Shown here: positions 1-39,815 of the stretch, piece after piece
Layout: every line of letters starts with the position of its first letter
How positions within the stretch are numbered: the stretch's first letter is position 1
Source of the DNA: a phage
Sequence record: PX436236.1
Direction: 5' to 3' (one strand)
Length of the DNA stretch: 64,000 nt
The notes under the pieces: model-generated
Told to the model about the DNA's origin: nothing
Databases searched by the model: none
Seen by the model: the letters and a program-made list of their open reading frames with translations, nothing else
Translations under genes and position numbers: made by a program

Positions 1-950
1 AAAGGACGAATTAAATGATGGTTATCTTGGAAACGCTTGATGTAGTCGTTTTCACCTAAAGTCTTATACATATTCACTACAGCTTGGTAGTTTTCCCAGG
101 CGTACTCGCGGAACCAACCTGAAGTGATTGAGGTACACACTTTCTCAAGAGCCATATAAAAACTTAATGATGGTGAAATATTGAAGTCATTAGGAACCTG
201 TGAACGTTCTAGTGCCAGGACACAAGTTTCTTCATATACACCAGCCAGTTTAATAGCTTCAGGCAAAGCCTCGAACTTCTCACGAGAGGTCATGACTTCA
301 GAACCTTCCTTCATATAAAAGGTATATGCAGGGCGTCCAGCCAATGCTACTGCTTCATGAATAGAGTCATGGTCCAGCGTATAAATGGTATCATTAAAGA
401 ACGATGATTTGTTTACGTCCAATTTAGGGTGAGAATAGCTCAACGTTTCTTTTTGACGTTGCAGCATAATTTCCTGGAGTTCTTCGTTAAGGGTGATACC
501 TTTATTACGAAGGTATTTGATGTGTGACATAGTTTTCAAGAAGAACGGATTATTCTTAAGGAAACGATGAGAGGTTTTGATAGCCAGACAGATATCAGGG
601 GTGGCCCAATAGAAACCAGTAAGACGGTCCTTTTTAATATGATTTTCAGCATATTTCAGGAGACGATAGCTTGAAGTGAAATCTTCGTCTTGAAGCTCAC
701 CGGTAATTTCTCGTACGTTAGTCAGAGCACGAACGATATAAGCTTCAAAATAGGTTTCTTTACCATTATGCATACATTTGAAAGCCTGGACATCAGGATT
801 GTCAACGTGTACATGGGCGCCGAACATACGTGCTTTAAAGTGATTCCATGAGCCTTGGTCGGCAATGAAATCCCAATCAGAATTTTCGATATGCTTACTT
901 TCAATCAGACCAGCGTGGTGCAGTGCACGAGAACCAATAACTAACATCAT
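1..950 (-). CDS. hypothetical early protein, partial (first ~316 aa; 3' end lies beyond window start)
   Basis: Uninterrupted minus-strand frame from ATG at 950 (SD GAGGA ~8 nt upstream) to position 1; absent from ORF track because no stop in window. Begins MMLVIGSRALHHAGLIESKH. Translated by eye. Confidence 0.5.
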   Translation of the reverse strand, partial: MMLVIGSRALHHAGLIESKHIENSDWDFIADQGSWNHFKARMFGAHVHVDNPDVQAFKCMHNGKETYFEAYIVRALTNVREITGELQDEDFTSSYRLLKYAENHIKKDRLTGFYWATPDICLAIKTSHRFLKNNPFFLKTMSHIKYLRNKGITLNEELQEIMLQRQKETLSYSHPKLDVNKSSFFNDTIYTLDHDSIHEAVALAGRPAYTFYMKEGSEVMTSREKFEALPEAIKLAGVYEETCVLALERSQVPNDFNISPSLSFYMALEKVCTSITSGWFREYAWENYQAVVNMYKTLGENDYIKRFQDNHHLIRP

Positions 951-969
951 AATATTTTCCTCAGTAAAC

Positions 970-1209
970 TTAAATTTCAGCGACGTAATCGTTATGCAAT
1001 TCCCACATATCATCAGAATTATTCTTAATGATAGGAATTATCTCATTAGAGATTTCTTCAGCATAAGGGTCATTGATACAGTGGGCATCTTCAAAACGAA
1101 CACCGTAATCAGACTTCTTATAAGAGAAGCCATAAATCTTTTTAAACTTGGCGCGAGTAATGCGTACCGGTTCATTAGACTTATCGGACATCGGAGCGTA
1201 ATACCACAT
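970..1209 (-). CDS. hypothetical small protein (79 aa)
   Basis: ATG start with GAGGAG SD; leader is near-identical to the leader of the ORF at 58083-58373. Confidence 0.45.
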   Translation of the reverse strand: MWYYAPMSDKSNEPVRITRAKFKKIYGFSYKKSDYGVRFEDAHCINDPYAEEISNEIIPIIKNNSDDMWELHNDYVAEI

Positions 1210-1252
1210 ATGTTCTCCTCATGTTTGTGTAGGGTAATAGTAACATGATTTT

Positions 1253-1582
1253 CTAGAGTTGTACATCACTTCTGCAATATTCTAAAAATAATTTATCATT
1301 GTCTACTGTATCCCAACGACGCCAAGACGGGTTCCAGACCAAAGCGTTGTCACCACAATCATTGAGCTTAAAATGGTCGTAGTACATAGCTATGTGTCTA
1401 GTCTCGTCACCAGAGAACCCCAGTATAGGCTCACCGCGGGTGTGATACATATGATGGTGCATTGAGAGGTCGCATTTGTAAAACATCTCACGTTTACCAC
1501 GAACGAACAAGAAGGCCTGTCCATTCATATAGAATTCTTTATTTGTTTTCAAAAGATATTTGAATACTGAATCTTTATGCAT
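1253..1582 (-). CDS. hypothetical protein (~109 aa)
   Basis: ORF-track frame 1253-1603; internal ATG at 1582 (MHKDSVF...) has strong AGGAGG SD and is preferred over ATG at 1603. Confidence 0.5.
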   Translation of the reverse strand: MHKDSVFKYLLKTNKEFYMNGQAFLFVRGKREMFYKCDLSMHHHMYHTRGEPILGFSGDETRHIAMYYDHFKLNDCGDNALVWNPSWRRWDTVDNDKLFLEYCRSDVQL

Positions 1583-1612
1583 AAGTCCTCCTACCACATC
1601 CATGTGGTTAAA

Positions 1613-1840
1613 TTATTTTCCTAACGAAATACGAGTAGGTTTTTTACCGAAATAGTCTTCATAAGAACCATCTAAACGACCTGCTTTAGACCGACAATAT
1701 GAATCGTACTTTTTGTAATAAGTCATCTCAGTATTATAACGCGGGTGTCTATCAGCCATAATAATACTTAACGGCCAACCTTTGGCATAATCGCGAAGAC
1801 CATTTATTTTACGAATGTATCTTTTCTTTAATTTTAGCAT
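1613..1840 (-). CDS. hypothetical small basic protein (75 aa)
   Basis: ATG start overlapping stop of upstream gene; weak SD. Confidence 0.4.
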   Translation of the reverse strand: MLKLKKRYIRKINGLRDYAKGWPLSIIMADRHPRYNTEMTYYKKYDSYCRSKAGRLDGSYEDYFGKKPTRISLGK

Positions 1841-2058
1841 GAGCTCGGATACCAGATTTTACCATCGGCCTGAGCAACGAAGGTGCGACCAGCTTCTTCG
1901 CCATAACACGAGCTATTCAGCCAATCTTCGAGACGAACTTCACCGTCATAATCGTCGAGCTCAACACCAAAACTTTGAGCAGAAGCCATATCTTTTACTT
2001 TCTTATACAGTGCAGCCAGTTCAAGTGCAGCTTTTTCTAATTCATTAATATCAGACAT
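1834..2058 (-). CDS. small acidic protein, member D of C-terminal-Cys paralogue family
   Basis: ATG with AAGGTG SD; ends ...KIWYPSSC. Confidence 0.5.
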   Translation of the reverse strand: MSDINELEKAALELAALYKKVKDMASAQSFGVELDDYDGEVRLEDWLNSSCYGEEAGRTFVAQADGKIWYPSSC

Positions 2059-2069
2059 TTTTTATCACC

Positions 2070-2282
2070 TTAGCAAGACATAGAGGATGTAAACCAGAAA
2101 CCTTCACCTTCCGGAATACCGTAGTCATCACGGACCCATTCGTAATCATCATATTCCGGGTTCTTTGGAGAAATGTATTCTCCACGACCAGAAACACGGA
2201 ACTCTTCACCCGTTTCGTCAGCCACAGACTGGCCTTTACGTACTAATTCACGGATTTGGTTTTCAATTTCATCAATAGTCAT
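2070..2282 (-). CDS. small acidic protein, member C of C-terminal-Cys paralogue family
   Basis: ATG with AAGGAA SD; ends ...GFWFTSSMSC. Confidence 0.5.
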   Translation of the reverse strand: MTIDEIENQIRELVRKGQSVADETGEEFRVSGRGEYISPKNPEYDDYEWVRDDYGIPEGEGFWFTSSMSC

Positions 2283-2291
2283 TTTATTTCC

Positions 2292-2573
2292 TTAACATTC
2301 AGAAGAAGAGGACACCCAACCACCATTTTCTAGGCTGGTAGTGTAATCATGTTGGTTTACAATAGCGTACTGAGCTTCACCGTATTCTTCCCAGTGGGCA
2401 AGGTCGGCTTTCAAGGCGCCAGGAGAATAATAGTCACCGCCCATACCGCGAGCAGGGTATATATTAAAATGAGTCTCATATTTGTTTGCAATTTCCTCGG
2501 CACGACGAATAGCTTTATGGATATCATTTACTGCTTCAGCCAATTCTTTATTTTTATGGTAATCATTCATCAT
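2292..2573 (-). CDS. small acidic protein, member B of C-terminal-Cys paralogue family
   Basis: ATG with AAGGAA SD; ends ...GGWVSSSSEC; clearly related to member A (KY..F...G.YY.PG core). Confidence 0.55.
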   Translation of the reverse strand: MMNDYHKNKELAEAVNDIHKAIRRAEEIANKYETHFNIYPARGMGGDYYSPGALKADLAHWEEYGEAQYAIVNQHDYTTSLENGGWVSSSSEC

Positions 2574-2582
2574 AAAATTTCC

Positions 2583-2873
2583 TTAGCACATTGCCGAAGA
2601 GGAGATCCAAGCACCAACTGTAACGACGCCATTTTCAACTTCACCACCGTTGTTTTCAATTTCATCTTTAAACCACTGGGAGCATTCATAACCGACAGGA
2701 TAATATGTACGGCCTGAACCATAATCACCAGTACCGAATTGGATACCATACTTATCGGCAATAGCTTCACATTCATGTTCGATGGTATTCACTTTATTCA
2801 GAAGAGCATAGATAGCCTTTTCTGCAGATTTCTCATCATTGTGTTCCGGGATTTCAATTTCAATTTTATTCAT
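2583..2873 (-). CDS. small acidic protein, member A of C-terminal-Cys paralogue family
   Basis: ATG with AAGGAA SD; ends ...VGAWISSSAMC. Confidence 0.55.
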   Translation of the reverse strand: MNKIEIEIPEHNDEKSAEKAIYALLNKVNTIEHECEAIADKYGIQFGTGDYGSGRTYYPVGYECSQWFKDEIENNGGEVENGVVTVGAWISSSAMC

Positions 2874-3223
2874 GATTTACATTCCTTAATAAAGGTTTCA
2901 AGGTCATTACGTTTAGTTTGTTTTACATACTCATTATAATTAGCCATAGCTAAAGCATATCTCTTTTTACGTGGCTTGTTTATTTTATTAGTTTGGGCAA
3001 TATCAAAGACCCATGGGATAAAAAATCCTATTAAAGCCGGAACCCAAATCCATGCAAGGCTCATATCTTCAAACGGATGGCGAGGCATACCATTAATAAT
3101 CCCACCGACAAGAAATCCAATTATCCCTGCAGTCATACTAGTAGCAATGCCGAGGAATAAGGAAATAGCTATATCATAATCTGCTAATGCGTAACCAGGG
3201 TCGGTTTTACTAGGCTTATGCAT
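2870..3223 (-). CDS. small membrane protein (two predicted TM helices)
   Basis: ORF-track start at 3259 is TTG; ATG at 3223 (MHKPSK...) has AGAGG SD and abuts upstream stop. Hydrophobic segments GIATSMTAGIIGFLVGGII and LAWIWVPALIGFFIPWVF. Confidence 0.5.
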   Translation of the reverse strand: MHKPSKTDPGYALADYDIAISLFLGIATSMTAGIIGFLVGGIINGMPRHPFEDMSLAWIWVPALIGFFIPWVFDIAQTNKINKPRKKRYALAMANYNEYVKQTKRNDLETFIKECKS

Positions 3224-3752
3224 TTTGAACCTCTTTAGCGTATTCGCGACATTCAGCAATAAAACGATTAAGCTTACGTTGTTGTTTACGACTTTCTAAT
3301 GTGTACTCATTAGCCAAAATAATAAGCTCATCTTTATCGTAATTTTTAATATCAGAGTAAGATGGGCGACGGTCAACCATTCCAAATACATCACCATTTT
3401 CTAAAGCTACATAACATACTAAATGGTAATCATCGTCTGCCATATTAAGAAGCACACAATCAGCGCTCTCGTTTAAAGAATATACCGAATAACGTAGTCC
3501 AGCGAATTCCACTCGTTGAATAGCCAGATTTACGTCAATAATTTCCAAAGCATCTTCAAAAGAAAGGTCTTCAGCTAAAGCAAAAATAAAAGGTAATTTG
3601 GTAGTATCGCCACGGCTAGATGTTCTGCTTAAGAAATCGTTTGAATAGCCTAGGTCTTGGCGAATTCTATAAAGAACTGAATTAGTTTCATGTGAAAGAC
3701 CACTATGCTTAAACCAATCAATATTTGATATCAGGTCGTCATATAAACTCAT
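3216..3752 (-). CDS. hypothetical protein (178 aa)
   Basis: ATG with strong GGAGGAGAGGAG SD. Confidence 0.55.
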   Translation of the reverse strand: MSLYDDLISNIDWFKHSGLSHETNSVLYRIRQDLGYSNDFLSRTSSRGDTTKLPFIFALAEDLSFEDALEIIDVNLAIQRVEFAGLRYSVYSLNESADCVLLNMADDDYHLVCYVALENGDVFGMVDRRPSYSDIKNYDKDELIILANEYTLESRKQQRKLNRFIAECREYAKEVQNA

Positions 3753-3775
3753 AATATTCTCCTCTCCTCCAAATA

Positions 3776-3793
3776 GGGAGACCGAAGTCTCCC
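3776..3793 (-). repeat. intergenic hairpin GGGAGAC-TTCG-GTCTCCC (minus-strand sense)
   Basis: Identical stem to 42259-42276 but inverted orientation; between two minus-strand ORFs. Confidence 0.45.
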
Positions 3794-3800
3794 AGTAACA

Positions 3801-4394
3801 TTACTTAAGTGAATTAATGTAGTCTTCGATATCAGCAGAAGTCGTATCCATTCCAACTTGTGGGCCTTTAAACGTTTCTACACGAAGCAGGGTGTCTTCA
3901 ATATCAATCTTAGTCAATGCAGCGATTTCAACAACATCATCGGCAGTAGCAATACCCAGGGCAGCCATATTACGAGTTTCACGAATGTACTCAAGCTTAA
4001 CCGCTAGTTCCTGGCGAGAGTCATCAAGTTCCTTAACCTTCAGTTTAATTTCATTACGCATTTCGATATAATCATCGGCTTTCTTACGAAGCTGGGTAGC
4101 TGTACGACGATAAAGGAGGCCAAGTTTAGCATGTACCTGGACATCAGCGCCTCCGGCAATCAGTTTACGAATTTCACGTTCTTTAGAAGCAGCGAGCTGG
4201 TCTTTTTCATTAGCCAATGCACGAATACGTTTTTCTTCATTCACAGACTTAACATGAGCAGTCTGGAGTTCAGTGATTTTATCAATCAGAGTAGAAGCAG
4301 CTTTTGTGTATTGGTCTTCGATTGACAGGTTCTGAGCCATTGCGGTGCCCAGTTTAGAACGAATGAATTCAACGATTTTCTTTAAAGTGTTCAT
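3801..4394 (-). CDS. coiled-coil protein (197 aa), weak resemblance to PspA/IM30-type helical proteins
   Basis: ATG with AAGGAA SD; own GTTTAC/TATAAT promoter upstream; sequence predominantly helical and charged. Confidence 0.5.
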
Positions 4395-4437
4395 AGTATT
4401 TCCTTCAGTTGGTTAACGTTTTGTAATCCATGAGGAC

Positions 4438-4467
4438 ATTATACCCTGTCCTCTGAGGTTTGTAAAC
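4438..4467 (-). promoter_or_regulatory. early sigma70-type promoter (GTTTAC -35, TATAAT -10) with overlapping stem-loop
   Basis: Minus strand GTTTAC-N18-TATAAT upstream of 3801-4394; inverted repeat aggaca/tgtcct spans -10. Confidence 0.55.
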
Positions 4468-4470
4468 ATT

Positions 4471-4869
4471 TTATTTCATTTTTGCGAGGCAAATTTCATT
4501 GGCTTCCCATTGAGCTTGCTTAATAATAGCTTTGGATACAGGAGCCCTTTGGCCATAAGTTTTTGACGTTGAGAGAACAATATGTTTGTTTGCTTCATTA
4601 TGCCAGCCCCATGATTTTTCGCCATGAGTACCTTTAACTACAGCTGACACCTCAACAGAGCAACCACCATCAGAAATCTTGGTTTCGACAACCCATTCAT
4701 TTCTCTCAGCAGCTTCAATTTCTAATCTAGTTTTTTCTTCATACATCGCGGCCCAATCAGTTTTTGCCAAGTTGAAAGTAAGAGCTTTCTCTAGTTCTTT
4801 GGCATATTTTTGTTGTTCAGGTGTTAATGAATTATACAACTCTTGCATTTCTTTATCTTCGATATTCAT
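4471..4869 (-). CDS. hypothetical protein (132 aa)
   Basis: ATG with GAGGAG SD; early promoter plus 10-bp inverted repeat upstream. Confidence 0.5.
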   Translation of the reverse strand: MNIEDKEMQELYNSLTPEQQKYAKELEKALTFNLAKTDWAAMYEEKTRLEIEAAERNEWVVETKISDGGCSVEVSAVVKGTHGEKSWGWHNEANKHIVLSTSKTYGQRAPVSKAIIKQAQWEANEICLAKMK

Positions 4870-4894
4870 TATGTTCTCCTCAAATTATGGGCTC

Positions 4895-4924
4895 ATAATA
4901 TCTTAATCATGAGCCCATGTAAAC
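4895..4924 (-). promoter_or_regulatory. early promoter (GTTTAC -35, TATTAT -10) with 10-bp inverted repeat
   Basis: Upstream of 4471-4869; ATGGGCTCAT/ATGAGCCCAT inverted repeat. Confidence 0.5.
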
Positions 4925-4927
4925 GTT

Positions 4928-5191
4928 TTATTTCATATTATTGAAATAATTTTCTGCATCAAAATCATTACCATGGTAAACTTTGGTAGACGATTTGGCG
5001 TAACCTTCAGCTGAGAACATATTAATCACAACTTTAATTGTATACCACTGTCCATCTTCATTACCCATTACTGCATAGGTTTCATACACCGGGTGTTCAG
5101 GACCGATAACCTTAATATCGTTAACTGTGGCACCAAATTCTTCCGGAACACATTTCATAAAGAAATTAAACACTTCACCATAATTATCCAT
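4928..5191 (-). CDS. hypothetical protein (~87 aa)
   Basis: ORF-track start 5206 is GTG; ATG at 5191 (MDNYGEV) has AAGGAG SD. Confidence 0.5.
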   Translation of the reverse strand: MDNYGEVFNFFMKCVPEEFGATVNDIKVIGPEHPVYETYAVMGNEDGQWYTIKVVINMFSAEGYAKSSTKVYHGNDFDAENYFNNMK

Positions 5192-5226
5192 TTTACTCTC
5201 CTTCACTCTGTTGTTTTGATAGGTCT

Positions 5227-5255
5227 ATAGTATCATGTTCTACGAAAGAGTAAAC
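5227..5255 (-). promoter_or_regulatory. early promoter cassette (GTTTAC-N17-TACTAT) containing GGTCTATAG motif
   Basis: Shares gataggtctatagta core with 8315-8352, 8641-8682 and 42579-42617. Confidence 0.55.
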
Positions 5256-5280
5256 ATCTTTTTTAAACCTTTTAGAAACA

Positions 5281-5307
5281 AAAAAGGCCCAACCTTTCGG
5301 AAGGGCC
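5281..5307 (-). terminator. intrinsic terminator (GNRA-loop hairpin plus T-run), repeat copy 1
   Basis: Minus strand GGCCCTTCCGAAAGGTTGGGCC then TTTTT, just after stop of 5313-5867. Confidence 0.6.
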
Positions 5308-5312
5308 TAGAA

Positions 5313-5867
5313 TCAGTTCTTGTAGAACCGGAATGGGTTTATGTGGAAGGCTAACATAGCCTTAGGGATTTTACGAGACAAAAGACTCTTAAGTTTCCAA
5401 CCACAGTATACACGAAGGTAAAAGGTAATCCCACCTACTTTAAGATACGGAACTGAAGCAAAGACTCCCCATGCTTCGTCATTCCACATCCATAACCATC
5501 CATGATGAGCTTTATCAGGAGAACCGGATTCAACGTCAGGATTACCACGATAATGGAATTCTGAGCTACAATCGCGTCCAAGTTTATGGTAAGCAAAGTT
5601 ATAAGCTTTATTTCGCCATAGCCAAGCTACCCTCTGGAGATAAACACCGCCCGGCATTTTCCTGATTTTAGCCCAACGTTTAATATGACCTTTGTCACCG
5701 TCAATTGGATTATCGTATGTCATCATCCAATCAAAGCCGTACGGTAATTTACCTGTCTTTTTATTGTGGAAAGGAACCACAAATGGGGCAAGGATAACAG
5801 CCAGAACCATAGAGATAAAATCTAGTGGGACCAACAGAACCCAACTCAAATATTTTAAAAGTTTCAT
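5313..5867 (-). CDS. membrane protein (N-terminal TM helices), ~184 aa
   Basis: ATG at 5867 lies downstream of the terminator hairpin at 5891-5906; the longer ATG at 5972 would bury that terminator in coding sequence. Hydrophobic N-terminus LSWVLLVPLDFISMVLAVILAPFVV. Confidence 0.5.
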   Translation of the reverse strand: MKLLKYLSWVLLVPLDFISMVLAVILAPFVVPFHNKKTGKLPYGFDWMMTYDNPIDGDKGHIKRWAKIRKMPGGVYLQRVAWLWRNKAYNFAYHKLGRDCSSEFHYRGNPDVESGSPDKAHHGWLWMWNDEAWGVFASVPYLKVGGITFYLRVYCGWKLKSLLSRKIPKAMLAFHINPFRFYKN

Positions 5868-5883
5868 ATATTTCTCTAAGTTA

Positions 5884-5906
5884 ACCAAAAAGCCCCAGAT
5901 GGGGCT
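5884..5906 (-). terminator. intrinsic terminator after internal-protein-like gene
   Basis: AGCCCCA/TGGGGCT hairpin followed by T-run on minus strand. Confidence 0.6.
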
Positions 5907-5910
5907 TTCG

Positions 5911-6375
5911 TTATTTGATTTGTTTAGCAGACCAGATACGGTCTTTGATGATTTTCTGAATATCTTCAACATACTCTAAGTCGTGAGCATGTGGATTATC
6001 TTTGAAGCTATGTGCTCGTGCCAGTTTCTGGCCTTCTGTTTTGATTACTAAAAGCTCTTTAAGAATTGCTTCATACTTAGAAATAATTCCTTTGGCGATA
6101 TTTTTTTCTTGAGCGGCTTTAGGGTCCGCTTTTGACGCAGGTGCTTTACCTGTAGCTTTCTGGAACAATTCACCTGATGCAGCTAGGCTTTTAAAAACTC
6201 GGCTAACAGTATTAGCATTAGTAAAACCTTCGGCTTTAAAATCTTTAATAAAACGGAAACGTTCTTCATCAGAGGCGTCTTTGTAAGAATATTTACCTGC
6301 TTGAATTGCTGCAATCGCAGCGGCTTTTACATCTGAACTAGATTGTTCAGTCAAAAATTCATTGTAAGTTTTCAT
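5911..6375 (-). CDS. internal-protein-like (capsid-targeted) protein, 154 aa
   Basis: N-terminus MKTYNEFLTE matches the T4 internal-protein capsid targeting sequence (MKTYQEFIAE, L/I-x-E cleavage motif); late promoter TATAAATA immediately upstream. Confidence 0.6.
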   Translation of the reverse strand: MKTYNEFLTEQSSSDVKAAAIAAIQAGKYSYKDASDEERFRFIKDFKAEGFTNANTVSRVFKSLAASGELFQKATGKAPASKADPKAAQEKNIAKGIISKYEAILKELLVIKTEGQKLARAHSFKDNPHAHDLEYVEDIQKIIKDRIWSAKQIK

Positions 6376-6401
6376 ATTATTTCCTAAGTTAGTTTACTAC
6401 A

Positions 6402-6409
6402 TATTTATA
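6402..6409 (-). promoter_or_regulatory. T4-type late promoter (TATAAATA)
   Basis: Minus-strand TATAAATA ~27 nt upstream of ATG of 5911-6375. Confidence 0.55.
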
Positions 6410-6410
6410 C

Positions 6411-6438
6411 AAAAAAAGCCCAACCTTTCGGAAGGGCC
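6411..6438 (-). terminator. intrinsic terminator, repeat copy 2 (after tRNA region)
   Basis: Same GCCCTTCCGAAAGGTTGGGC hairpin plus TTTTTTT. Confidence 0.55.
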
Positions 6439-6439
6439 T

Positions 6440-6820
6440 TTAACCTAGGGTAACCTTGTCGGGGTTCCACCTGCTAGGCAAGTGTTTGTACGAAACGCCG
6501 GGATTCGAACCCGGTTATTAAGTAGTTGACGCCACTCAATATTTTTAAAAGGCCATATCTCGACCATATCCGAACGTTCCGTCAAAAACGCTACTCGGCT
6601 TACGGCAAAGATATTTCCTCGAATCGATAATTCGGTGCGCCGTTTCTGCTGTGATGTAAGGGGACGTTAACAGATCGTAAAGATTTGTTAATGCCAGTCC
6701 TTACTCAGGGAACATCAGTCCGACGACTTACCGGTAGCGACCCGGTTTCTTGTTTGTTGCGCCGGTGAATGCTGGTAATCAGTCTTCATACGACGGCTTG
6801 ACTATATAATAGTCTTCATT
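6440..6820 (-). other. ORF-free structured region next to tRNAs, with orphan tRNA-like T-arm (6494-6512)
   Basis: No ORF of 60 aa or more; CCGGG/TTCGAAT/CCCGG T-arm-like hairpin and other stem-loops; position analogous to T4 small stable RNAs. Confidence 0.3.
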
Positions 6821-6895
6821 TGGTATCCCGCCCTGGGATCGAACCAGGACCGCAAACTTAGAAGGATCGTATGCTATCCATTACACCAGCGGGAC
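6821..6895 (-). tRNA. tRNA-Arg (anticodon TCT)
   Basis: Cloverleaf folded by hand: 7-bp acceptor stem, T-arm CCTGG/TTCGATC/CCAGG, anticodon loop CTTCTAA, encoded CCA. Confidence 0.75.
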
Positions 6896-6900
6896 GTAGT

Positions 6901-6977
6901 TGGTGACCCAGACCAGATTTGAACTGGTAACCTTTCCCTTATGAGGGGACTGCTGCTAACCATTGAGCTACAGGGCC
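6901..6977 (-). tRNA. tRNA-Met/Ile (anticodon CAT)
   Basis: T-arm ACCAG/TTCAAAT/CTGGT, anticodon loop CTCATAA, encoded CCA; acceptor stem has one T-T mismatch, D-arm atypical. Confidence 0.6.
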
Positions 6978-6982
6978 TTAAA

Positions 6983-7249
6983 TCAAACTACAAATCCAGC
7001 AGGAGCATTATCATCTTTAGCCATGTGCTGAATTGTATGATAAGTCATTTCTTCAGGAGCAACCAGATAAGCCGCAGCGTTAACTAGTGGAATTATTTTT
7101 GGTTTAGCGAATGTGCTATCGGCAATTGCCATAAAGGGCTCGCCGTCGGTCTCAACTTCACCAAATTGACATTCATACGAAATAGAACAACGTTTGGTAG
7201 TTGTTGTCTTGGTTTCTGGGTCGTAAAAAGCTAATTTTAATACTAACAT
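6983..7249 (-). CDS. hypothetical protein (~88 aa)
   Basis: ORF-track start 7255 is GTG; ATG at 7249 with GAGGTG SD. Confidence 0.4.
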   Translation of the reverse strand: MLVLKLAFYDPETKTTTTKRCSISYECQFGEVETDGEPFMAIADSTFAKPKIIPLVNAAAYLVAPEEMTYHTIQHMAKDDNAPAGFVV

Positions 7250-7428
7250 AAACACCTCAAATAAAATTAAGTAAAGTAAGTTTGATTAATAGACCTTGTC
7301 TATTATGAAAGGCTCTTTGAGGGAAGAACCTTTGGTAATAGAGGGTTACTTAATAATGTTAGAGTAATAATAACACATTACTCTTAAAGCATATTACTAT
7401 TTTTAGGAATAGTCTGGTCAAATTTGAT

Positions 7429-7719
7429 TCATTGTGGCCACATATTAATGTAATCAAGTTTAATAGAAGCAATCTTCAAAGGATTTTTAAAGATGTCGTA
7501 TTCGATCAATCCGTTTTCAGTTGCGGTGTAGAAAGTAAAGTTAACAGAATTATAACGGCGACCATTAACTTTTAGTTTAACGTCGCTTGAACTACGACCA
7601 ATATTAACCTGTTGGACATCAAGCACAGCACCTTTGCCAAAGTTGCGAATCAGTAGCTCTGCTGCAACCTGGTCTGAATTATAGCCATTCTCTGGATTAG
7701 TAACCTTAACGTATAGCAT
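7429..7719 (-). CDS. hypothetical protein (96 aa)
   Basis: ATG start abutting stop of upstream gene. Confidence 0.45.
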   Translation of the reverse strand: MLYVKVTNPENGYNSDQVAAELLIRNFGKGAVLDVQQVNIGRSSSDVKLKVNGRRYNSVNFTFYTATENGLIEYDIFKNPLKIASIKLDYINMWPQ

Positions 7720-8100
7720 TTAACCCTCGTCTACAATAGTATGGGTATTAGCATTAACAATCTGCCACCAGTCAAAACGATTGGAACCGTAAAGAGGGTT
7801 ATTCTCATTTTCTTTAATGATATCGCGCAGTTCATCTTCAGTAGCGGCCTTTGCGATTAAGTCGGCATAACCGCCACGAGGGTAATAGTTATCACCCGCA
7901 AAGAGCAAAAAGTTTGTTTTGATATTCTTGAATTCTTCAAGTGTAATAACGGACCCATTGGGTTGAACAATATCCACATAACTATACCCTAATTCCTGGG
8001 CTTTATCTACCGCCTCAAGCAGGGTGTCGTGTGCCCACCCAATTTGACAATCTGGTTTTTCAGATGGATTTGCCTGATAATCTGCATACACTTTATACAT
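7720..8100 (-). CDS. hypothetical protein (~126 aa)
   Basis: ORF-track start 8148 is TTG; ATG at 8100 (MYKVYADYQ) lies 1 nt after stop of upstream ORF (translational coupling). Confidence 0.5.
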   Translation of the reverse strand: MYKVYADYQANPSEKPDCQIGWAHDTLLEAVDKAQELGYSYVDIVQPNGSVITLEEFKNIKTNFLLFAGDNYYPRGGYADLIAKAATEDELRDIIKENENNPLYGSNRFDWWQIVNANTHTIVDEG

Positions 8101-8101
8101 T

Positions 8102-8287
8102 TTACTCACCTTTAGAGATTTTATCCATAACAAAAGAAATTGAACCAATTAAAAATGCCACTACTAAAGAGATTATATTCTCGGAAGTTGAAAGCATATC
8201 GAGCATGAATCCTGCAAACATACTAAAGCCAAAAGCGGTAACAGCGGCCAGTGCAGTAACATTTCTAATTAATTCACAACGTTTCAT
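8102..8287 (-). CDS. small hydrophobic membrane protein (~61 aa)
   Basis: ATG at 8287 with GGAGA SD (track start 8299 is TTG); single TM-like segment; early promoter at 8324-8352. Confidence 0.4.
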   Translation of the reverse strand: MKRCELIRNVTALAAVTAFGFSMFAGFMLDMLSTSENIISLVVAFLIGSISFVMDKISKGE

Positions 8288-8323
8288 TTTATTCTCCAAT
8301 CACTCATTTGTTTTGATAGGTCT

Positions 8324-8352
8324 ATAGTATCACACCTATAGACCTTGTAAAC
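8324..8352 (-). promoter_or_regulatory. early promoter cassette (GTTTAC-N17-TACTAT) within palindrome
   Basis: ggtctatag...ctatagacc inverted repeat; upstream of 8102-8287. Confidence 0.55.
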
Positions 8353-8354
8353 AA

Positions 8355-8627
8355 TTATTTTAGATAAATTGCATACTTTTTATAACCAGCTGTTTCGTGA
8401 CGCAACCCTTTTTCATTAGCAAAACGTTCAATATTGTTAATTTGATTCTGGTCGAGTTCTGAAGTATCAAAAACAAAAAAGTTTCGCTTATTGCCTAAAG
8501 TTACGTGATTAGTCAAATCGATGTTATAGAGATGATTTATATCATCAATCATAGTCTTAACAGATTTGTTAATTTTTACTTCCTCATTAAGAATAGATTC
8601 AGCGATAAATTCTTGATAAGTTTTCAT
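8355..8627 (-). CDS. ipI: internal protein I-like (capsid-targeted), 90 aa
   Basis: N-terminus MKTYQEFIAE identical to the T4 IPI capsid targeting sequence; position next to 57B as in T4. Confidence 0.65.
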   Translation of the reverse strand: MKTYQEFIAESILNEEVKINKSVKTMIDDINHLYNIDLTNHVTLGNKRNFFVFDTSELDQNQINNIERFANEKGLRHETAGYKKYAIYLK

Positions 8628-8640
8628 TTTGATTTCCGTG

Positions 8641-8682
8641 CGGTTAGTTTGTTTACAAGGTCTATAGTATCATGCCTATAGA
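8641..8682 (-). promoter_or_regulatory. early promoter cassette within 17-bp perfect inverted repeat
   Basis: GTTTACAAGGTCTATAG / CTATAGACCTTGTAAAC separated by 8 bp; minus-strand GTTTAC-N17-TACTAT upstream of IPI-like gene. Confidence 0.6.
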
Positions 8683-8703
8683 CCTTGTAAACACCTTTTT
8701 AAA

Positions 8704-9396
<693 letters not shown>

Positions 9397-9404
<8 letters not shown>

Positions 9405-10158
9405 TTTTATTTCCTAATAATTTATCAATAGTGGTGTATAGTTCAGAAAGAGTGCCGTTATTTTCAATAACAACGTCACCGGGTAAAATTGGTAGACCCG
9501 CTTCAGTGATGTGCGAGTCTTGTACTTGACCGGTTTCAGCGCGAACTACATGAATAATCGTAGCACCCATCGCTCTGAGCGAATCAATTTCGTGTGTTTG
9601 ACGAACATCAGGTACGACATAGTATTTCGCATCAGAGTATATTTTATCAAAATAGTCTAAAGCGAACAACTTAACCCAATACATCTTATCAAATTGGTTA
9701 ACAATAATATCAGTCCCAAGGGTCTGCATGAGACGACGTACTGACCAATTGTTATTTTTATTTATTACTTCAAACAGTTGGTCTTTTGTTTCTTCAGACA
9801 GATACTGGACTGGGGTAAGACCATAATGATATGCGGTACGAACGTCCATTCCTGGAATAGGAAGGATATTATTCAGTTTGACAATAGCATTTTCAAAGAT
9901 ATCAATCACATCATATGGTTTTAAAGGAATGATTTCTTCACGGTCGTAACCGATACCTTCAAAACAGTTAAAATCTAGTTTAGGCATGTAACTACGGTCG
10001 AATACAGGGTCATCAGAGATGTATTCATAGGCTTCAGCCAGATACTTTTTAATAGGACCTGCGAGCTGAAATTTTACCGAATCCATATTTTCGATTACAT
10101 AGTTAGCAACGGTATCCTTACCGCTACGTTTGATTCCTACAATTGATATTAGTTTCAT
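9397..10158 (-). CDS. 1: gp1 deoxynucleoside monophosphate kinase
   Basis: 253 aa; P-loop-like VGIKRSGKDT near N-terminus; synteny. Confidence 0.85.
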
Positions 10159-10748
10159 TATTTTCTCATAGATGGATGCATAGACATACGAGCCACTCGT
10201 TGTTCGGCATACGAATCAATTTGTGGACGACCTGTAACTATTGTACCATCTATTTCTACAGCAAACGATTTGAAGTTGAATGTTGCTGTGGCGATAATCG
10301 CCGGGTCAGAATCCTCTTTATAAGAGTACTGGATTTCCGAGAGGTCGGATGGCCAACCACCGTAGTAATGAATGCTCATTACGATTTTCTGTTTGTTGTT
10401 ATCAAGGATGTGGAGGGTGATAGCTTCCGGTTGACCTTTAGGATGCCAGGCTTCTGAATCATGGGTTACATAGTTGTTTAATGACAACATCCACTTATAA
10501 ACGTCAAGCCACGATTTCAATTCACGGTCCACAAGAAAGTTCACAATCAATGGGTCGAATTCTACAGTAGAACCTGGCAGCTTAGCACGATGTATGCCCT
10601 GGGTCGATCCTGGGACGTCTGAGACCGGAATATGGATACCCGGTAGTGTTACATCTTGTACGTTCAATTTGAATGCCTGCGTCATTCCTGCGTCACTAAC
10701 CTCTAAGATAAAGTTAGTAGTGTTAGTTTGGTTAAATAAACCGTTCAT
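10158..10748 (-). CDS. 3: gp3 tail completion / sheath stabiliser
   Basis: Synteny (1-3-2-4). ORF-track start 10883 is TTG and would overlap gp2 by 53 nt; first ATG at 10748 chosen (196 aa). Confidence 0.65.
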   Translation of the reverse strand: MNGLFNQTNTTNFILEVSDAGMTQAFKLNVQDVTLPGIHIPVSDVPGSTQGIHRAKLPGSTVEFDPLIVNFLVDRELKSWLDVYKWMLSLNNYVTHDSEAWHPKGQPEAITLHILDNNKQKIVMSIHYYGGWPSDLSEIQYSYKEDSDPAIIATATFNFKSFAVEIDGTIVTGRPQIDSYAEQRVARMSMHPSMRK

Positions 10749-10830
10749 AGGGTTCCTATATTGCTTAAGTCCCAGACAGTGTATAATGGTCCTAGGTCTG
10801 TTCCATTCAATAACTGGCTGGGATAATAGA

Positions 10831-11667
10831 TTATGAATTCTTCCATACTTTCTGAGCTGAATAACGCTTACCTTTCGATACAAATTGCTGGAGTGGTAAT
10901 CCTATTACATTAGCCCAATCAGACGGTTTTATCTCTACTAAAGGTCCCTTAATATTTCCAGGGATATAAGCCTTAATCATCACGTCGGCGCCAGCGAATC
11001 CTTTTACCTTACTCCAATCGATTTTTAATTTAGTCGAGTTCGTAATGGTAGGCGTACTCGCGTATTGCTTCAGCAATTCTTCCAGAAATTGCTGACGTGC
11101 TTTAGGTGGAATATAGTGTAAGTTCAGTCCGTACATTAAATTATGCTTACCTAACCCAAGATAAATTATTAAAGGATATTTGTCCCAGTATGGTAGGGTA
11201 TCCTTATGTTTGGCATCATAGATATAAGCATAAAGCTTACCAGGAGACGGTTTAGATACCTGGTGCCCACGAATTCCTTTCTTTAATGTTTCTGTAAACC
11301 ATTTAGCCGATTTATTGTTTACAGCGGCGCCCTCGTTAGCAATCTTATCACGAATACTCTTTCTAAAACTATTCACCAAAATTAATTGACGTTCGGCTTT
11401 GGTTAATTTATTGCCAGGTTTCTTCTGAAGTTTTTCAACCTGTACAGCAGTTTTAATTCGACTCGAGTATCGAGACATCGCAGATGTAAAGCTAGAATAC
11501 TTGATGCCTTTATCTTCAGCGAATTTCTTAGCCGAAACACCTTTAGCCTTAGCGTTGGCATATTCAACGCCTAAAGCTATCCATTGTTGTTCTGAACGAG
11601 TAGGCTTGGAACCTTTTGTAGTTTCAGTAGCCTCGTTGATGTAAGAAAATATACTCATCCTTTCCAT
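10831..11667 (-). CDS. 2: gp2 DNA end-protector protein
   Basis: 278 aa (T4 gp2 ~274 aa); synteny; alternative ATG at 11657 has better SD. Confidence 0.8.
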
Positions 11668-12104
11668 CCTAATTTTTTCAGTGAGTTTTCGGTAATCAAT
11701 CTGAAATTAATTCCCATTTTATCTGCTGTAGCTTTAGCAGCTTTCCATTTATCTTTATTTACACTCCATGTATAATGTTCGTTGATATATCTCTTTTTAG
11801 CAGCTGTAGTCATTTTAGCAGGCGCCGCTGGAGGATGGGTCTCTTTAAAAGGTTTGACTTCGAAAAAGAATTGTTGACCATTGTCGAACTTCACCCAGAA
11901 GTCCATAAAATACCGACGTTTCTTTCCATCAGCGTTACTAAAATATGGAATCACAACCTCTTCCGAGTTCCACTGGACGACATTAGGATGGTTGTCAAGC
12001 CAACGCATAAGCCATGCTTCCCAAGAGGAACGATATTGGATTTTCTTCCAATCACCTTTATATTTTTGTAAGTTTGTAGGTTTAAATTTCCCTGAGTAGG
12101 CCAT
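11655..12104 (-). CDS. 4: gp4 head completion protein
   Basis: 149 aa (T4 gp4 ~150 aa); late promoter TATAAATA and AAGGAGG SD upstream. Confidence 0.8.
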
Positions 12105-38752: not shown

Positions 38753-39180
38753 TGTTCCTTATCCCTGATGATTACGAATTAACTCTAGAAAGCGTAGAGG
38801 CCAAAATTCCAGAAGCACAGGGACGTTTTGCTGCTCTTTCTGAAGCGCTCGAGAAAAGCGATATAAATAATCTTGTAGAGAACATGATTGCTGAAGGCGA
38901 TATCGAATGTGCTATCGCTCTTGGTTCTTTAAATGAATCAATGGCTCTTAACGAATTTATCGTTAAACACGTTTCCTCTAAAGGTGAGCTTACTCGTACT
39001 AAAGATATTAAAACCCGTCAACGTAATGCGTTCCAAACGACAGGTTTATCTAAAGCAAAACGCCGTCAGATTGCTCGTAAAGCATCTAAAACCAAACGTG
39101 CTAATCCGTCTACTCAAGTACGTGCCGAACGTAAGCGTAAGAAAGCCCGTTCTAAACGTAAAGCTTTTGGACTTAACTAA
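38752..39180 (+). CDS. 68: gp68 prohead core protein
   Basis: 142 aa; basic C-terminus; synteny. Confidence 0.75.
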
Positions 39181-39815
39181 TGAAACCTGAATTGCTCATC
39201 GAACATTGGGGACAACCAGGTGAAATTATCGATGGGGTTCCTATGTTGGAATCTCATGATGGAAAAAATTCTGGGCTTGCTCCCGGCCTTTATATAGAAG
39301 GCATTTTCATGCAAGCAGAGGTAGTTAACCGTAATAAACGGCTTTACCCAAAACCTATTTTGGAAAAAGCCGTTGCCGATTATATGGCAGAACAGGTTGC
39401 TACTAAACAAGCTTTAGGAGAATTAAACCACCCACCTCGTGCTAACGTTGACCCTATGCAAGCTGCTATCATTATTGAAGATATGTGGTGGAAAGGTAAT
39501 GATGTTTATGGACGTGCACGTATCATCGAAGGTGACCATGGCCCTGGTGATAAACTAGCTGCAAATATCCGAGCCGGCTGGGTTCCTGGTGTTAGTTCTC
39601 GCGGTCTTGGTTCTTTAACTGAAACCAATAAAGGATATAAGCGTGTAAACGAAGGTTATAAATTAACCGTCGGTGTTGATGCAGTATGGGGACCATCTGC
39701 TCCTGATGCTTATGTAACTCCGAAGCAAATTACAGAATCACAAACGGTAGAAACCGATACCAGTGCCGATGACGCCTTTATGGCTCTCGCAGAGGCCATG
39801 AAAAAAGCGTTATAA
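39180..39815 (+). CDS. 21: gp21 prohead core protease
   Basis: 211 aa (T4 212); synteny. Confidence 0.9.
   Translation: MKPELLIEHWGQPGEIIDGVPMLESHDGKNSGLAPGLYIEGIFMQAEVVNRNKRLYPKPILEKAVADYMAEQVATKQALGELNHPPRANVDPMQAAIIIEDMWWKGNDVYGRARIIEGDHGPGDKLAANIRAGWVPGVSSRGLGSLTETNKGYKRVNEGYKLTVGVDAVWGPSAPDAYVTPKQITESQTVETDTSADDAFMALAEAMKKAL

What the first reader, a model, noticed from the sequence alone, without database searches (positions are those of the whole stretch)
5911..8627. Two internal-protein candidates with T4-type capsid targeting sequences and different promoter types
The ORF at 8355-8627 starts with MKTYQEFIAE, identical to the T4 IPI capsid targeting sequence cleaved by the gp21 prohead protease. 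The ORF at 5911-6375 starts with the variant MKTYNEFLTE. Their mature parts are unrelated to each other. The first has a GTTTAC-type early promoter, the second a TATAAATA late promoter. T4 IPI is an injected anti-restriction protein, so these are candidates for packaged, injected anti-defence proteins with unknown targets.
Basis: partly seen in the sequence, partly recalled or inferred. Interest (0 to 1): 0.5.

Follow-up and report, generated by a model that had tools for sequence, protein, structure and literature searches.

The report
Two capsid-packaged phage internal protein genes
A T4-like phage carries two genes whose products start with the short tag that T4 uses to load proteins into its head for injection. 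One is the known internal protein Ip9, and the other belongs to a widespread family that databases list only as "hypothetical", so it is a plausible but untested injected anti-defence protein.

Summary
Both ORFs exist at the stated coordinates, on the minus strand, in a Dhakavirus-like T-even phage. ORF 8355-8627 is Ip9, 79% identical to RB15 Ip9 (Repoila 1994). It sits in the classical polymorphic ipI locus (trna.4 | Ip9 | 57B/Acb1), between repeated palindromic GTTTAC early promoters. Its leader MKTYQEFIAE matches T4 IPII and IPIII exactly, not IPI, which starts MKTFKEF. The window lacks the Ip8 gene of its closest relatives, and the junction lies inside the leader-coding repeat. Leaderless copies of the Ip9 mature domain occur in siphoviruses, and a fused copy occurs in a Kuttervirus protein.

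ORF 5911-6375 (154 aa, MKTYNEFLTE) keeps every experimentally defined leader position (Y4, F7, L8, E10). It has its own TATAAATA late promoter and terminator. Its mature part is basic and lysine-rich like IPII and IPIII. It belongs to a family found in more than 500 Tevenvirinae genomes, always annotated "hypothetical", at a third locus (rnaC/e.8) that is empty in T4.

The prohead protease gp21 is encoded in the same window. Packaging and injection are therefore likely for both proteins. The anti-defence role is inferred by analogy, and neither fold nor sequence suggests a target. Ip9 is already known, and the 154-aa family is a new member of a known kind.

The parts
8355..8627 (-). Ip9 gene (90 aa plus stop). 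Leader codons 8598-8627 encode MKTYQEFIAE. A second possible gp21 site, LNE, lies at residues 13-15. The conserved mature domain covers roughly residues 17-90.
   Evidence: ORF list. 98% identical to QL01 'Ip9 gene product'. 79% identical to RB15 Ip9, Q38376. phrog_7673 'internal head protein', E 2e-56.
8650..8693 (-). Palindromic early promoter upstream of Ip9: GTTTAC, 17 nt, TACTAT at 8664-8692, inside an 18-bp perfect inverted repeat.
   Evidence: (I4). Aligns with the promoters upstream of T4 ipI, ipII and ipIII and of QL01 Ip8.
8266..8360 (-). Downstream copy of the flanking repeat, containing a second GTTTAC early promoter (8324-8352) that precedes trna.4.
   Evidence: Direct-repeat family D1, 8266-8360 vs 8606-8700, 72% over 95 nt. 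Promoter scan.
8606..8700 (-). Upstream copy of the flanking repeat. It covers the start of the Ip9 leader, the ribosome-binding site and the promoter. The promoter and the first 24 nt of coding sequence are of the 'Ip8 type' seen in QL01 and UGJNEcP3.
   Evidence: The alignment switches from Ip8-type to Ip9-type sequence within CAAGAATTTATC of the leader-coding stretch.
5911..6375 (-). 154-aa ORF with leader MKTYNEFLTE (codons 6346-6375). Predicted mature protein of 144 aa, 15.9 kDa, pI 9.5, 14.6% Lys. It has an N-terminal helical domain (residues 13-67), a K/A/P-rich linker (68-84) and a C-terminal helical hairpin (85-151).
   Evidence: AF2 model with mean pLDDT 72.6. phrog_2280 'unknown function', E 6e-53. 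511 phage records hold a homolog; every annotation shown (40 records; cluster members) reads 'hypothetical'.
6402..6409 (-). T4-type late promoter TATAAATA, 26 nt upstream of the ATG of the 154-aa ORF.
   Evidence: the only exact minus-strand match in window positions 1-12,000. Conserved at the same position in Tequatrovirus homologs KarlGJung and AR1.
6411..6441 (-). Terminator hairpin and T-run at the 3' end of the rnaC-like RNA, immediately upstream of the late promoter.
   Evidence: Read from the sequence. Homologous to the T4 rnaC 3' end.
5887..5908 (-). Terminator hairpin (AAAGCCCC-ATCT-GGGGCTTT plus T-run) 3 nt after the stop codon of the 154-aa ORF. It closes a self-contained late transcription unit.
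39180..39815 (+). Gene 21 prohead core protease, the enzyme expected to cleave both leaders after the L/I-x-E motif. Neighbours are gp20 portal (36933-38507), gp22 scaffold (39846-40661) and gp23 (40683-42242).
   Evidence: Pfam Peptidase_S77 E 6e-103, T4_CASP, Portal_T4 and Gp23.

Best explanation
Both genes most likely encode T4-type internal proteins.

**Proposed mechanism.** The 10-residue N-terminal capsid targeting sequence binds the gp22 scaffolding core while the prohead assembles. The gp21 protease then cuts after the Glu of the L/I-x-E motif: IAE in Ip9 and LTE in the 154-aa protein. The mature protein stays in the head with the DNA and is injected with it, so it acts before any phage gene is expressed.

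**ORF 8355-8627.** This is the known protein Ip9, at the recombination-prone ipI locus. The locus is built from cassettes of palindromic early promoter, leader and variable body. In this phage a crossover inside the leader-coding repeat removed the neighbouring Ip8 gene.

**ORF 5911-6375.** This belongs to a conserved, unannotated family at a different locus, between rnaC and DUF7338/e.8. It is made only late, from its own TATAAATA promoter, at the time heads assemble.

**What is shown and what is inferred.**
- Shown: the leaders, promoters, repeats, homologies and the presence of gp21.
- Inferred: packaging and cleavage.
- Inferred by analogy only: that the mature parts disarm host defences such as modification-dependent nucleases.

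The basic, lysine-rich 154-aa protein could instead, or additionally, act like IPII and IPIII as a DNA-associated head component.

The confidence given (0.7) is for both proteins being leader-targeted, gp21-processed head proteins. It is higher for Ip9 and lower for the 154-aa protein. The anti-defence role on its own I would put at about 0.4-0.5.
For: - **Leaders.** Ip9's is identical to that of T4 IPII and IPIII. The 154-aa ORF keeps Y4, F7, L8 and E10, the positions defined by amber-suppression analysis of IPIII (PMC9026906). Exactly MKTYNEFLTE occurs on an IPII-family protein, P0084.
- **Conservation of the leader.** M1, K2, Y4, F7 and E10 are invariant in close homologs of the 154-aa protein. 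An aromatic at position 4, F7 and a nearby L/I-x-E persist in relatives only 34-47% identical overall: MLKFNEFLAE, MLEYSEFLKE, MISFNEFVDGNLITE and MKFKEFLIE.
- **Chance.** About 0.0001 such starts are expected in the window and 2 are seen.
- **Assembly machinery.** gp21, gp22, gp20 and gp23 are in the same window.
- **Timing.** The late promoter lies 26 nt upstream and is conserved in Tequatrovirus homologs. The gene also has its own terminator.
- **Composition.** The mature 154-aa protein has pI 9.5 and 14.6% Lys, against IPII at 9.56 and 15.6% and IPIII at 9.65 and 13.7%.
- **Ip9 identity and locus.**. Flanking promoter repeats. Recombinant 5' end.
- **Dispensability.** The ortholog bas37_0244 is non-essential, as internal proteins are (29 of 34 TA sites disrupted).
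- **Precedent for function.** Ip1, Ip2 and Ip3 each inhibit a distinct GmrSD (PMC12373910). Bas37_0260, in the same locus, inhibits McrBC.
Against: - I found no virion proteomics for either protein.
- The 154-aa ORF lies outside the two classical ip loci and lacks their flanking early-promoter repeats.
- Its ortholog bas37_0244 showed no fitness effect in the two clinical-strain comparisons I read (log2FC -0.11 and -0.30, q=1).
- Neither mature part resembles IPI, IPII, IPIII or Bas37_0260. The similarity to IPII vanishes once the leader is removed (hhalign probability 84% falls to 0.9%).
- No exact late promoter lies near Ip9. The nearest on its strand is 3.5 kb upstream, so late supply depends on early-made protein or read-through.
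- Mature Ip9 is near neutral (pI 6.8), unlike the basic T4 internal proteins.
- Leaderless Ip9-domain homologs in other phages show that the domain does not need packaging to be useful.
Confidence: 0.7

Rival explanations
1. The 154-aa protein is packaged through its leader, but its job is structural or physical rather than anti-defence. It would be a lysine-rich, DNA-associated head filler or an aid to head assembly, as proposed for T4 IPII and IPIII before 2025. IPIII mutants assemble heads more slowly.
For: - Basic, lysine-rich composition close to IPII and IPIII.
- A predicted K/A/P-rich flexible linker and long helices with no recognisable fold.
- Strict late expression.
- High conservation across three genera, unlike the hypervariable ip loci.
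- No conditional phenotype of bas37_0244 in two clinical hosts.
- The IPIII role in assembly rate is described in PMC9026906.
Against: - IPII and IPIII, the models for this idea, are now shown to be specific GmrSD inhibitors (PMC12373910).
- The gene is absent from T4 and non-essential in Bas37, so it is not needed for head assembly as such.
- The C-terminal half is swapped for an unrelated one in the Yersinia, Klebsiella and Serratia phage relatives. That pattern is more typical of an arms-race protein.
Confidence: 0.25
2. The 154-aa protein is a late cytoplasmic protein that is not packaged. Its leader-like start would be a by-product of recombination that copied a translation-initiation region plus leader-coding stretch from an ip gene.
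For: - The leader-coding DNA of the two ORFs is a 33-nt direct repeat at 79% identity (family D3).
- Recombination within leader-coding DNA demonstrably occurs in this lineage.
- The ORF lies outside the classical ip loci.
Against: - A relic would decay. Instead the functionally defined positions are kept in relatives as low as 34-47% identical overall.
- In the T4 system the first 10 residues of the IPIII leader suffice to target foreign proteins into heads (PMC9026906). A late-made protein carrying such a leader would therefore be expected to be packaged.
Confidence: 0.1
3. The Ip9 domain acts on a target other than a restriction or defence nuclease, for example a host metabolic or envelope function. 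It is a general phage accessory module that T-even phages happen to deliver by injection.
For: - Leaderless homologs exist in small early-gene clusters of siphoviruses: Bas70_0057 at 51% identity and Seuratvirus KS_A3 at 44%.
- A further copy forms the C-terminal ~80 residues of a 983-aa Kuttervirus protein with a weak, sub-threshold CobT/VWA-like match.
- The predicted fold is a generic alpha/beta sandwich with no informative neighbour.
Against: - All four characterised proteins that carry this leader inhibit modification-dependent nucleases.
- Ip9 sits next to Acb1/57B, an anti-CBASS gene.
- Early gene clusters of siphoviruses are also where anti-defence genes typically lie (general knowledge).
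Confidence: 0.2

Closest known systems
[not shown]
   Same: ORF 8355-8627 has the same length (90 aa) and is 79% identical. It has the same kind of leader, lies in the same locus between 57B and trna.4, and has the same kind of upstream GTTTAC palindromic early promoter.
   Different: Locus content differs. RB15 has Ip5-Ip9-Ip7-Ip8, QL01 has Ip8-Ip9, and this window has Ip9 alone. Its promoter and the first 24 coding nt are taken from an Ip8-type cassette. The function of Ip9 is unknown in every phage.
T4 IPII and IPIII (internal proteins with the leader MKTYQEFIAE; GmrSD inhibitors per Silas et al. 2025, PMC12373910)
   Same: Ip9 has the identical 10-residue leader. The 154-aa ORF has a 7-of-10 identical leader with all key positions kept. 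The mature 154-aa protein has a similar basic, lysine-rich composition. Like these proteins, its ortholog is non-essential.
   Different: The mature parts share no detectable homology: hhalign gives 0.9% after leader removal, and there is no PF26874 hit. The 154-aa gene lies at another locus and is driven by a late promoter rather than a GTTTAC early promoter.
T4 IPI
   Same: It occupies the same genomic slot as Ip9, between 57B and trna.4, and has the same promoter architecture.
Bas37_0260 (phage KarlGJung), a leader-bearing McrBC inhibitor in the ipI locus (HIDEN-SEQ preprint, 10.1101/2025.11.20.689424)
   Same: It has the same leader (MKTYQEFIAE), lies in the same locus and is a similarly small protein.
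   Different: The mature sequence is unrelated and falls in a different PHROG: 8111 against 7673 for Ip9. Its McrBC activity therefore cannot be transferred to Ip9.

Membership tests
T4-type internal proteins (capsid-targeted, gp21-processed) | N-terminal capsid targeting sequence with the experimentally critical positions: aromatic residue at 4 and Phe at 7 for targeting, L/I at 8 and Glu at 10 for processing | tested here: met
   Ip9 has MKTYQEFIAE, identical to IPII and IPIII. The 154-aa ORF has MKTYNEFLTE with Y4, F7, L8 and E10. Criteria are from PMC9026906.
T4-type internal proteins (capsid-targeted, gp21-processed) | The same genome encodes a T4-type prohead core, with gp21 protease and gp22 scaffold | tested here: met
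   Peptidase_S77 at 39180-39815 and T4_CASP at 39846-40661.
T4-type internal proteins (capsid-targeted, gp21-processed) | Gene lies in one of the two polymorphic ip loci, flanked by ~70-bp repeats carrying an early promoter with an overlapping inverted repeat (my recollection of the Repoila 1994 abstract; paper not held) | tested here: inconclusive
   Met for Ip9. Not met for the 154-aa ORF, which sits between rnaC and DUF7338/e.8 with a late promoter and no such repeats.
T4-type internal proteins (capsid-targeted, gp21-processed) | Processed protein present in purified virions and injected with the DNA | not testable with these tools
   No virion proteomics was found for Ip9 or for the 154-aa family in the held literature.
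T4-type internal proteins (capsid-targeted, gp21-processed) | Dispensable for growth on standard laboratory hosts | tested here: met
   From published transposon data. The ortholog bas37_0244 is 'Non-essential' (29 of 34 TA sites), as are bas37_0260 and bas37_0261. Ip9 itself is not present in Bas37.
Ip9 family (phrog_7673) | Full-length sequence homology to RB15 Ip9 | tested here: met
   79% identity over 90 of 90 residues to Q38376. phrog_7673 E 2e-56 covering positions 1-90 of 90.
T4 IPII family (Pfam PF26874) | Homology of the mature part of the 154-aa ORF to IPII | tested here: not met
   No PF26874 hit at E<=0.1. BLASTP and hhalign similarity is confined to residues 1-44 and collapses to 0.9% probability once the leaders are removed.
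Injected inhibitors of modification-dependent (type IV) restriction enzymes | Homology to a characterised inhibitor (IPI*, Ip2, Ip3, Bas37_0260) or a demonstrated rescue of phage growth | tested here: not met
   No sequence or fold similarity to any of them. Functional rescue cannot be tested with these tools.

The most novel reading that the evidence does not exclude
The 154-aa family would be a previously unrecognised class of T-even internal protein, encoded at a third locus. That locus is a late-promoter cassette between the stable-RNA/tRNA cluster and e.8, and it is present in hundreds of Tequatrovirus, Mosigvirus and Dhakavirus genomes, with C-terminal swaps in Yersinia, Klebsiella and Serratia relatives. 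The protein would be injected to neutralise a host defence not yet linked to internal proteins. In parallel, the Ip9 body would be a portable anti-defence domain that different phage groups deliver in three ways: injected with a leader in T-evens, expressed early without a leader in siphoviruses, and fused to a large protein in Kuttervirus.
Probability: 0.35. Interest if true: 0.55.

Novelty: new member of a known kind. Interest (0 to 1): 0.38.

Why it matters
Work from 2025 showed that T-even internal proteins are injected, highly specific inhibitors of modification-dependent nucleases. Only four of a dozen or more have a known target.

Ip9 and the 154-aa family are ready-made candidates for the next targets. 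The 154-aa family is missed by current annotation in more than 500 genomes, so leader-based scans of T-even genomes would probably enlarge the catalogue of injected proteins.

The leaderless Ip9 homologs give a simple experimental handle, because the same domain can be tested by plasmid expression.

The Ip8 deletion junction inside the leader-coding repeat documents how these cassettes are shuffled. None of this changes the known concept.

Tried and rejected
- **Family and sequence searches.** Pfam, NCBIfam and PDB sequence searches gave nothing significant for either protein.
- **The 154-aa protein as a diverged IPII.** BLASTP (34% over 44 aa), phrog_7857 and hhalign (84%) suggested this. I rejected it because the signal disappears when the leaders are stripped.
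- **A PPR-like repeat hit.** P0031 matched the N-terminal domain at E 1.7e-4 across six repeats. I treated it as helical-hairpin similarity and did not pursue it.
- **Ip9 as the McrBC inhibitor Bas37_0260.** I rejected this. Bas37 (KarlGJung) carries Ip5 and a different 77-aa protein in the locus.
- **Late promoter for Ip9.** I searched for one and found none within 3.5 kb.
Full report
**Source and layout.** The window comes from a T-even phage of the Dhakavirus group. The region 5700-8800 matches Escherichia phages QL01, UGJNEcP3/4, fDHCT2, PSD2002 and WG01 at 94-98% identity, and QL01 and UGJNEcP3 are classified in Dhakavirus. All genes here are on the minus strand. Read in transcription order, from high to low coordinates:

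| Coordinates | Feature |
|---|---|
| 9397-10158 | gene 1 (dNMP kinase) |
| 9159-9404 | 57A |
| 8704-9159 | 57B, the anti-CBASS nuclease Acb1 (PF23474, E 9e-59) |
| 8355-8627 | the 90-aa ORF |
| 8102-8299 | trna.4 |
| 7720-8100 | trna.3 |
| 7429-7719 | trna.2 |
| 6983-7255 | small ORF |
| 6901-6977 | tRNA-Met |
| 6821-6895 | tRNA-Arg |
| 6411-6820 | about 400 nt of rnaC/rnaD-like sequence |
| 5911-6375 | the 154-aa ORF |
| 5313-5867 | a DUF7338 gene |
| below 5313 | e.8-like genes |

**Check of the observation.** Both ORFs and their N-termini are as reported.
- They are the only two Met-started reading frames in the window that match M[KR][TS][YF]x[ED][FYL][LI]xE. About 1e-4 are expected from the window's own amino-acid composition.
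- The mature parts share nothing.
- The promoter statements hold. GTTTAC-N17-TACTAT lies at 8664-8692, embedded in an 18-bp perfect palindrome. An exact TATAAATA lies at 6402-6409, 26 nt before the ATG of the 154-aa ORF. It is the only exact minus-strand copy in the first 12 kb.
- One statement is wrong. MKTYQEFIAE is the leader of T4 IPII and IPIII (also PMC8442874). T4 IPI begins MKTFKEFTSTTTPVSTITE.

**The 90-aa ORF is Ip9.**
- It matches phrog_7673 'internal head protein' end to end (E 2e-56).
- It occupies the slot that ipI occupies in T4, between 57B and trna.4.
- A 95-nt direct repeat flanks the gene (8266-8360 and 8606-8700). Its core is the palindromic early promoter. The same element precedes T4 ipI, ipII and ipIII, follows T4 ipI, and precedes every ip gene of RB15.

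This is the cassette architecture that, as I recall it, Repoila et al. 1994 described for the polymorphic ip loci. The paper is not held. PMC12373910 cites it for more than 10 leader-bearing Ips. An early GTTTAC promoter is therefore the norm for ip genes, not a peculiarity.

**Locus polymorphism and a recombination junction.**
- RB15 carries 57B | Ip5-Ip9-Ip7-Ip8 | trna.4.
- QL01 and UGJNEcP3 carry 57B | Ip8-Ip9 | trna.4.
- This window carries Ip9 alone.

I aligned the 5' ends. The window's promoter, ribosome-binding site and first 24 coding nucleotides (ATGAAAACTTATCAAGAATTTATC) are those of the relatives' Ip8 cassette. From GCTGAATCT onward the sequence is Ip9. The relatives' own Ip9 starts ATGAAATCATACCAA (MKSY...). 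The simplest reading is a crossover within the leader-coding repeat that removed Ip8; in QL01 the two leader regions are 76% identical over 50 nt. The leader-coding DNA, as well as the promoter repeat, therefore serves as a recombination site.

**The Ip9 body outside T-even phages.** tblastn found homologs of residues ~17-90 that lack the leader.
- Bas70_0057 is a 72-aa protein, 51% identical. It is the first gene of a cluster of small genes next to the replication and regulatory region of a 43-kb phage with siphovirus relatives.
- A 74-aa protein occurs in Seuratvirus KS_A3.
- The last ~80 residues of a 983-aa Kuttervirus protein (SilasIsHot gp71) also match. That protein has a weak CobT/VWA-like match below Pfam's cut-off and lies downstream of an AAA ATPase gene (phrog_7673 E 3e-8 over profile positions 16-74).
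- Motifs such as GNKRNFFxFD and RFANxKGLRxExAGYKK are shared.
- Ip7 is a distant relative of the C-terminal half (H125).

Ip9 thus looks like a widespread phage accessory domain onto which T-even phages grafted the packaging leader. The AF2 model (pLDDT 80, helix-strand-strand-helix-strand-strand) has only generic structural neighbours. No function can be read from it.

**The 154-aa ORF.**
- *Leader.* MKTYNEFLTE keeps the four positions that amber-suppression experiments on IPIII identified: 4 and 7 for targeting, 8 and 10 for processing (PMC9026906). It ends in L-x-E, the gp21 cleavage motif. The identical leader occurs on an IPII-family protein, P0084.
- *Distribution.* Homologs occur in 511 phage records. 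They are 157 aa in Tequatrovirus of the RB32, AR1 and KarlGJung type, with the leader MKSYAQFLNEAVLNE that offers two L-x-E sites. They are 154 aa in Mosigvirus and Dhakavirus. They always lie between the stable-RNA/tRNA cluster and e.8. T4 has only about 280 nt of non-coding DNA there.
- *Annotation.* About 300 cluster members and all sampled GenBank records call it 'hypothetical' or 'uncharacterized', and its PHROG has no function.
- *Distant relatives.* An exhaustive profile search found Yersinia fHe-Yen9-01 g153 and metagenomic proteins at 34-47% identity. They keep a leader of the same type, and some have an unrelated C-terminal half.
- *Transcription unit.* The gene is self-contained. 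The rnaC terminator hairpin (6411-6441) is followed by TATAAATA (6402-6409), a ribosome-binding site, the ORF and its own hairpin terminator (5887-5908). The late promoter is conserved in Tequatrovirus homologs.
- *Properties.* The predicted mature protein is 15.9 kDa with pI 9.5 and 14.6% Lys, close to IPII and IPIII. The AF2 model (pLDDT 72.6) shows a small helical N-domain, a K/A/P-rich linker and a long helical hairpin, with no PDB neighbour.
- *Relation to IPII.* The apparent similarity is confined to residues 1-44 and vanishes when the leaders are removed. It is not an IPII homolog.

**Machinery.** The same window encodes the gp20 portal, gp21 prohead protease (Peptidase_S77, E 6e-103), gp22 scaffold, gp23 and gp24. 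The system that recognises and cleaves such leaders in T4 is therefore present.

**Mechanism and function.** The best-supported explanation has four steps.
1. The leader binds the scaffolding core.
2. gp21 cleaves after Glu10.
3. The mature protein is retained in the head.
4. It is ejected with the DNA.

This rests on the T4 experiments summarised in PMC9026906 and PMC3012670. It is an inference for these two proteins, for which I found no virion proteomics.

The anti-defence role is an analogy. T4 Ip1, Ip2 and Ip3 each block a different GmrSD enzyme (PMC12373910). Bas37_0260, a leader-bearing protein in the same locus as Ip9, blocks McrBC. Bas37_0260 is not Ip9.

Published transposon data classify bas37_0244, the ortholog of the 154-aa ORF, as non-essential. 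It showed no fitness effect in the two clinical-host comparisons I read (log2FC -0.11 and -0.30). That fits an accessory protein but gives no target. A structural, DNA-associated role remains a serious rival for the 154-aa protein.

**Verdict.** Ip9 is already known and annotated. What this work adds is its recombinant junction and its leaderless relatives. The 154-aa family is a credible, apparently unrecognised member of the internal-protein class, at a new locus and under late-only control. The concept is established, so overall interest is moderate. The practical value is two concrete candidates for injected anti-defence proteins.

Noticed in passing
window 5313-5867 (-): A DUF7338 / phrog_2143 membrane-protein gene lies directly downstream of the 154-aa ORF. 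Its Bas37 ortholog bas37_0243 is scored 'Essential' in published transposon data (1 of 48 TA sites hit), although T4 has no such gene at this position.
   Followed up: partly
window 8704-9159 (-): Gene 57B is Acb1, the anti-CBASS nuclease (PF23474, E 9e-59). It lies immediately upstream of Ip9, so the ipI locus sits next to a proven anti-defence gene. Related records still annotate it as 'RNA ligase'.
   Followed up: partly
window 6411-6820 (-): About 400 nt without ORFs lie between tRNA-Arg and the late promoter. The 3' part aligns by eye with T4 rnaC (species 1 RNA), including its terminator. No Rfam family matches, so the T4 stable RNAs C and D appear to have no covariance model.
   Followed up: partly
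window 6821-6977 (-): The tRNA cluster is reduced to two genes, Arg-tct and Met-cat. T4 has 8 and Tequatrovirus AR1 and KarlGJung have 10 in the same position.
   Followed up: no
window 8598-8703 (-); L001 5392-5760; L002 4802-5168: Relative to QL01 and UGJNEcP3 the window lacks Ip8. The Ip9 gene here has the Ip8-type promoter and first 24 coding nt, which points to a crossover inside the leader-coding repeat.
   Followed up: yes
L009 4143-7094 (Salmonella phage SilasIsHot gp71); L007 2507-2725 (Bas70_0057); L010 1992-2216 (KS_A3): The Ip9 mature domain occurs without a leader as a stand-alone ~72-aa early protein in siphoviruses. It also forms the C-terminal ~80 residues of a 983-aa Kuttervirus protein that has a weak, sub-threshold CobT/VWA-like match and lies downstream of an AAA ATPase gene. 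These records label the small proteins 'internal head protein' purely by PHROG transfer, which is probably wrong for phages that lack the T4 packaging system.
   Followed up: partly
protein P0009 (metagenome, 94 aa); compare window 7720-8100 and 5911-6005: One metagenomic protein fuses a trna.3-like N-terminus to the last 31 residues of the 154-aa protein. This implies a deletion variant that removes the whole tRNA and stable-RNA region.
   Followed up: no
L011 5364-5621 (bas37_0261) and L012 82-339 (RB15 Ip5): bas37_0261 is identical to RB15 Ip5. In one clinical-strain comparison of the HIDEN-SEQ supplement it shows a significant fitness defect (log2FC -2.09, q about 0). This hints at a host-specific role that the preprint's main text does not discuss.
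   Followed up: no
window 5857-5883 and 6365-6391: The translation-initiation regions of the DUF7338 gene and the 154-aa ORF form a 27-nt direct repeat at 74% identity (TAACTTAG[A]GAAATA[T]ATGAAA). It may be chance or a shared late-gene initiation context.
   Followed up: no
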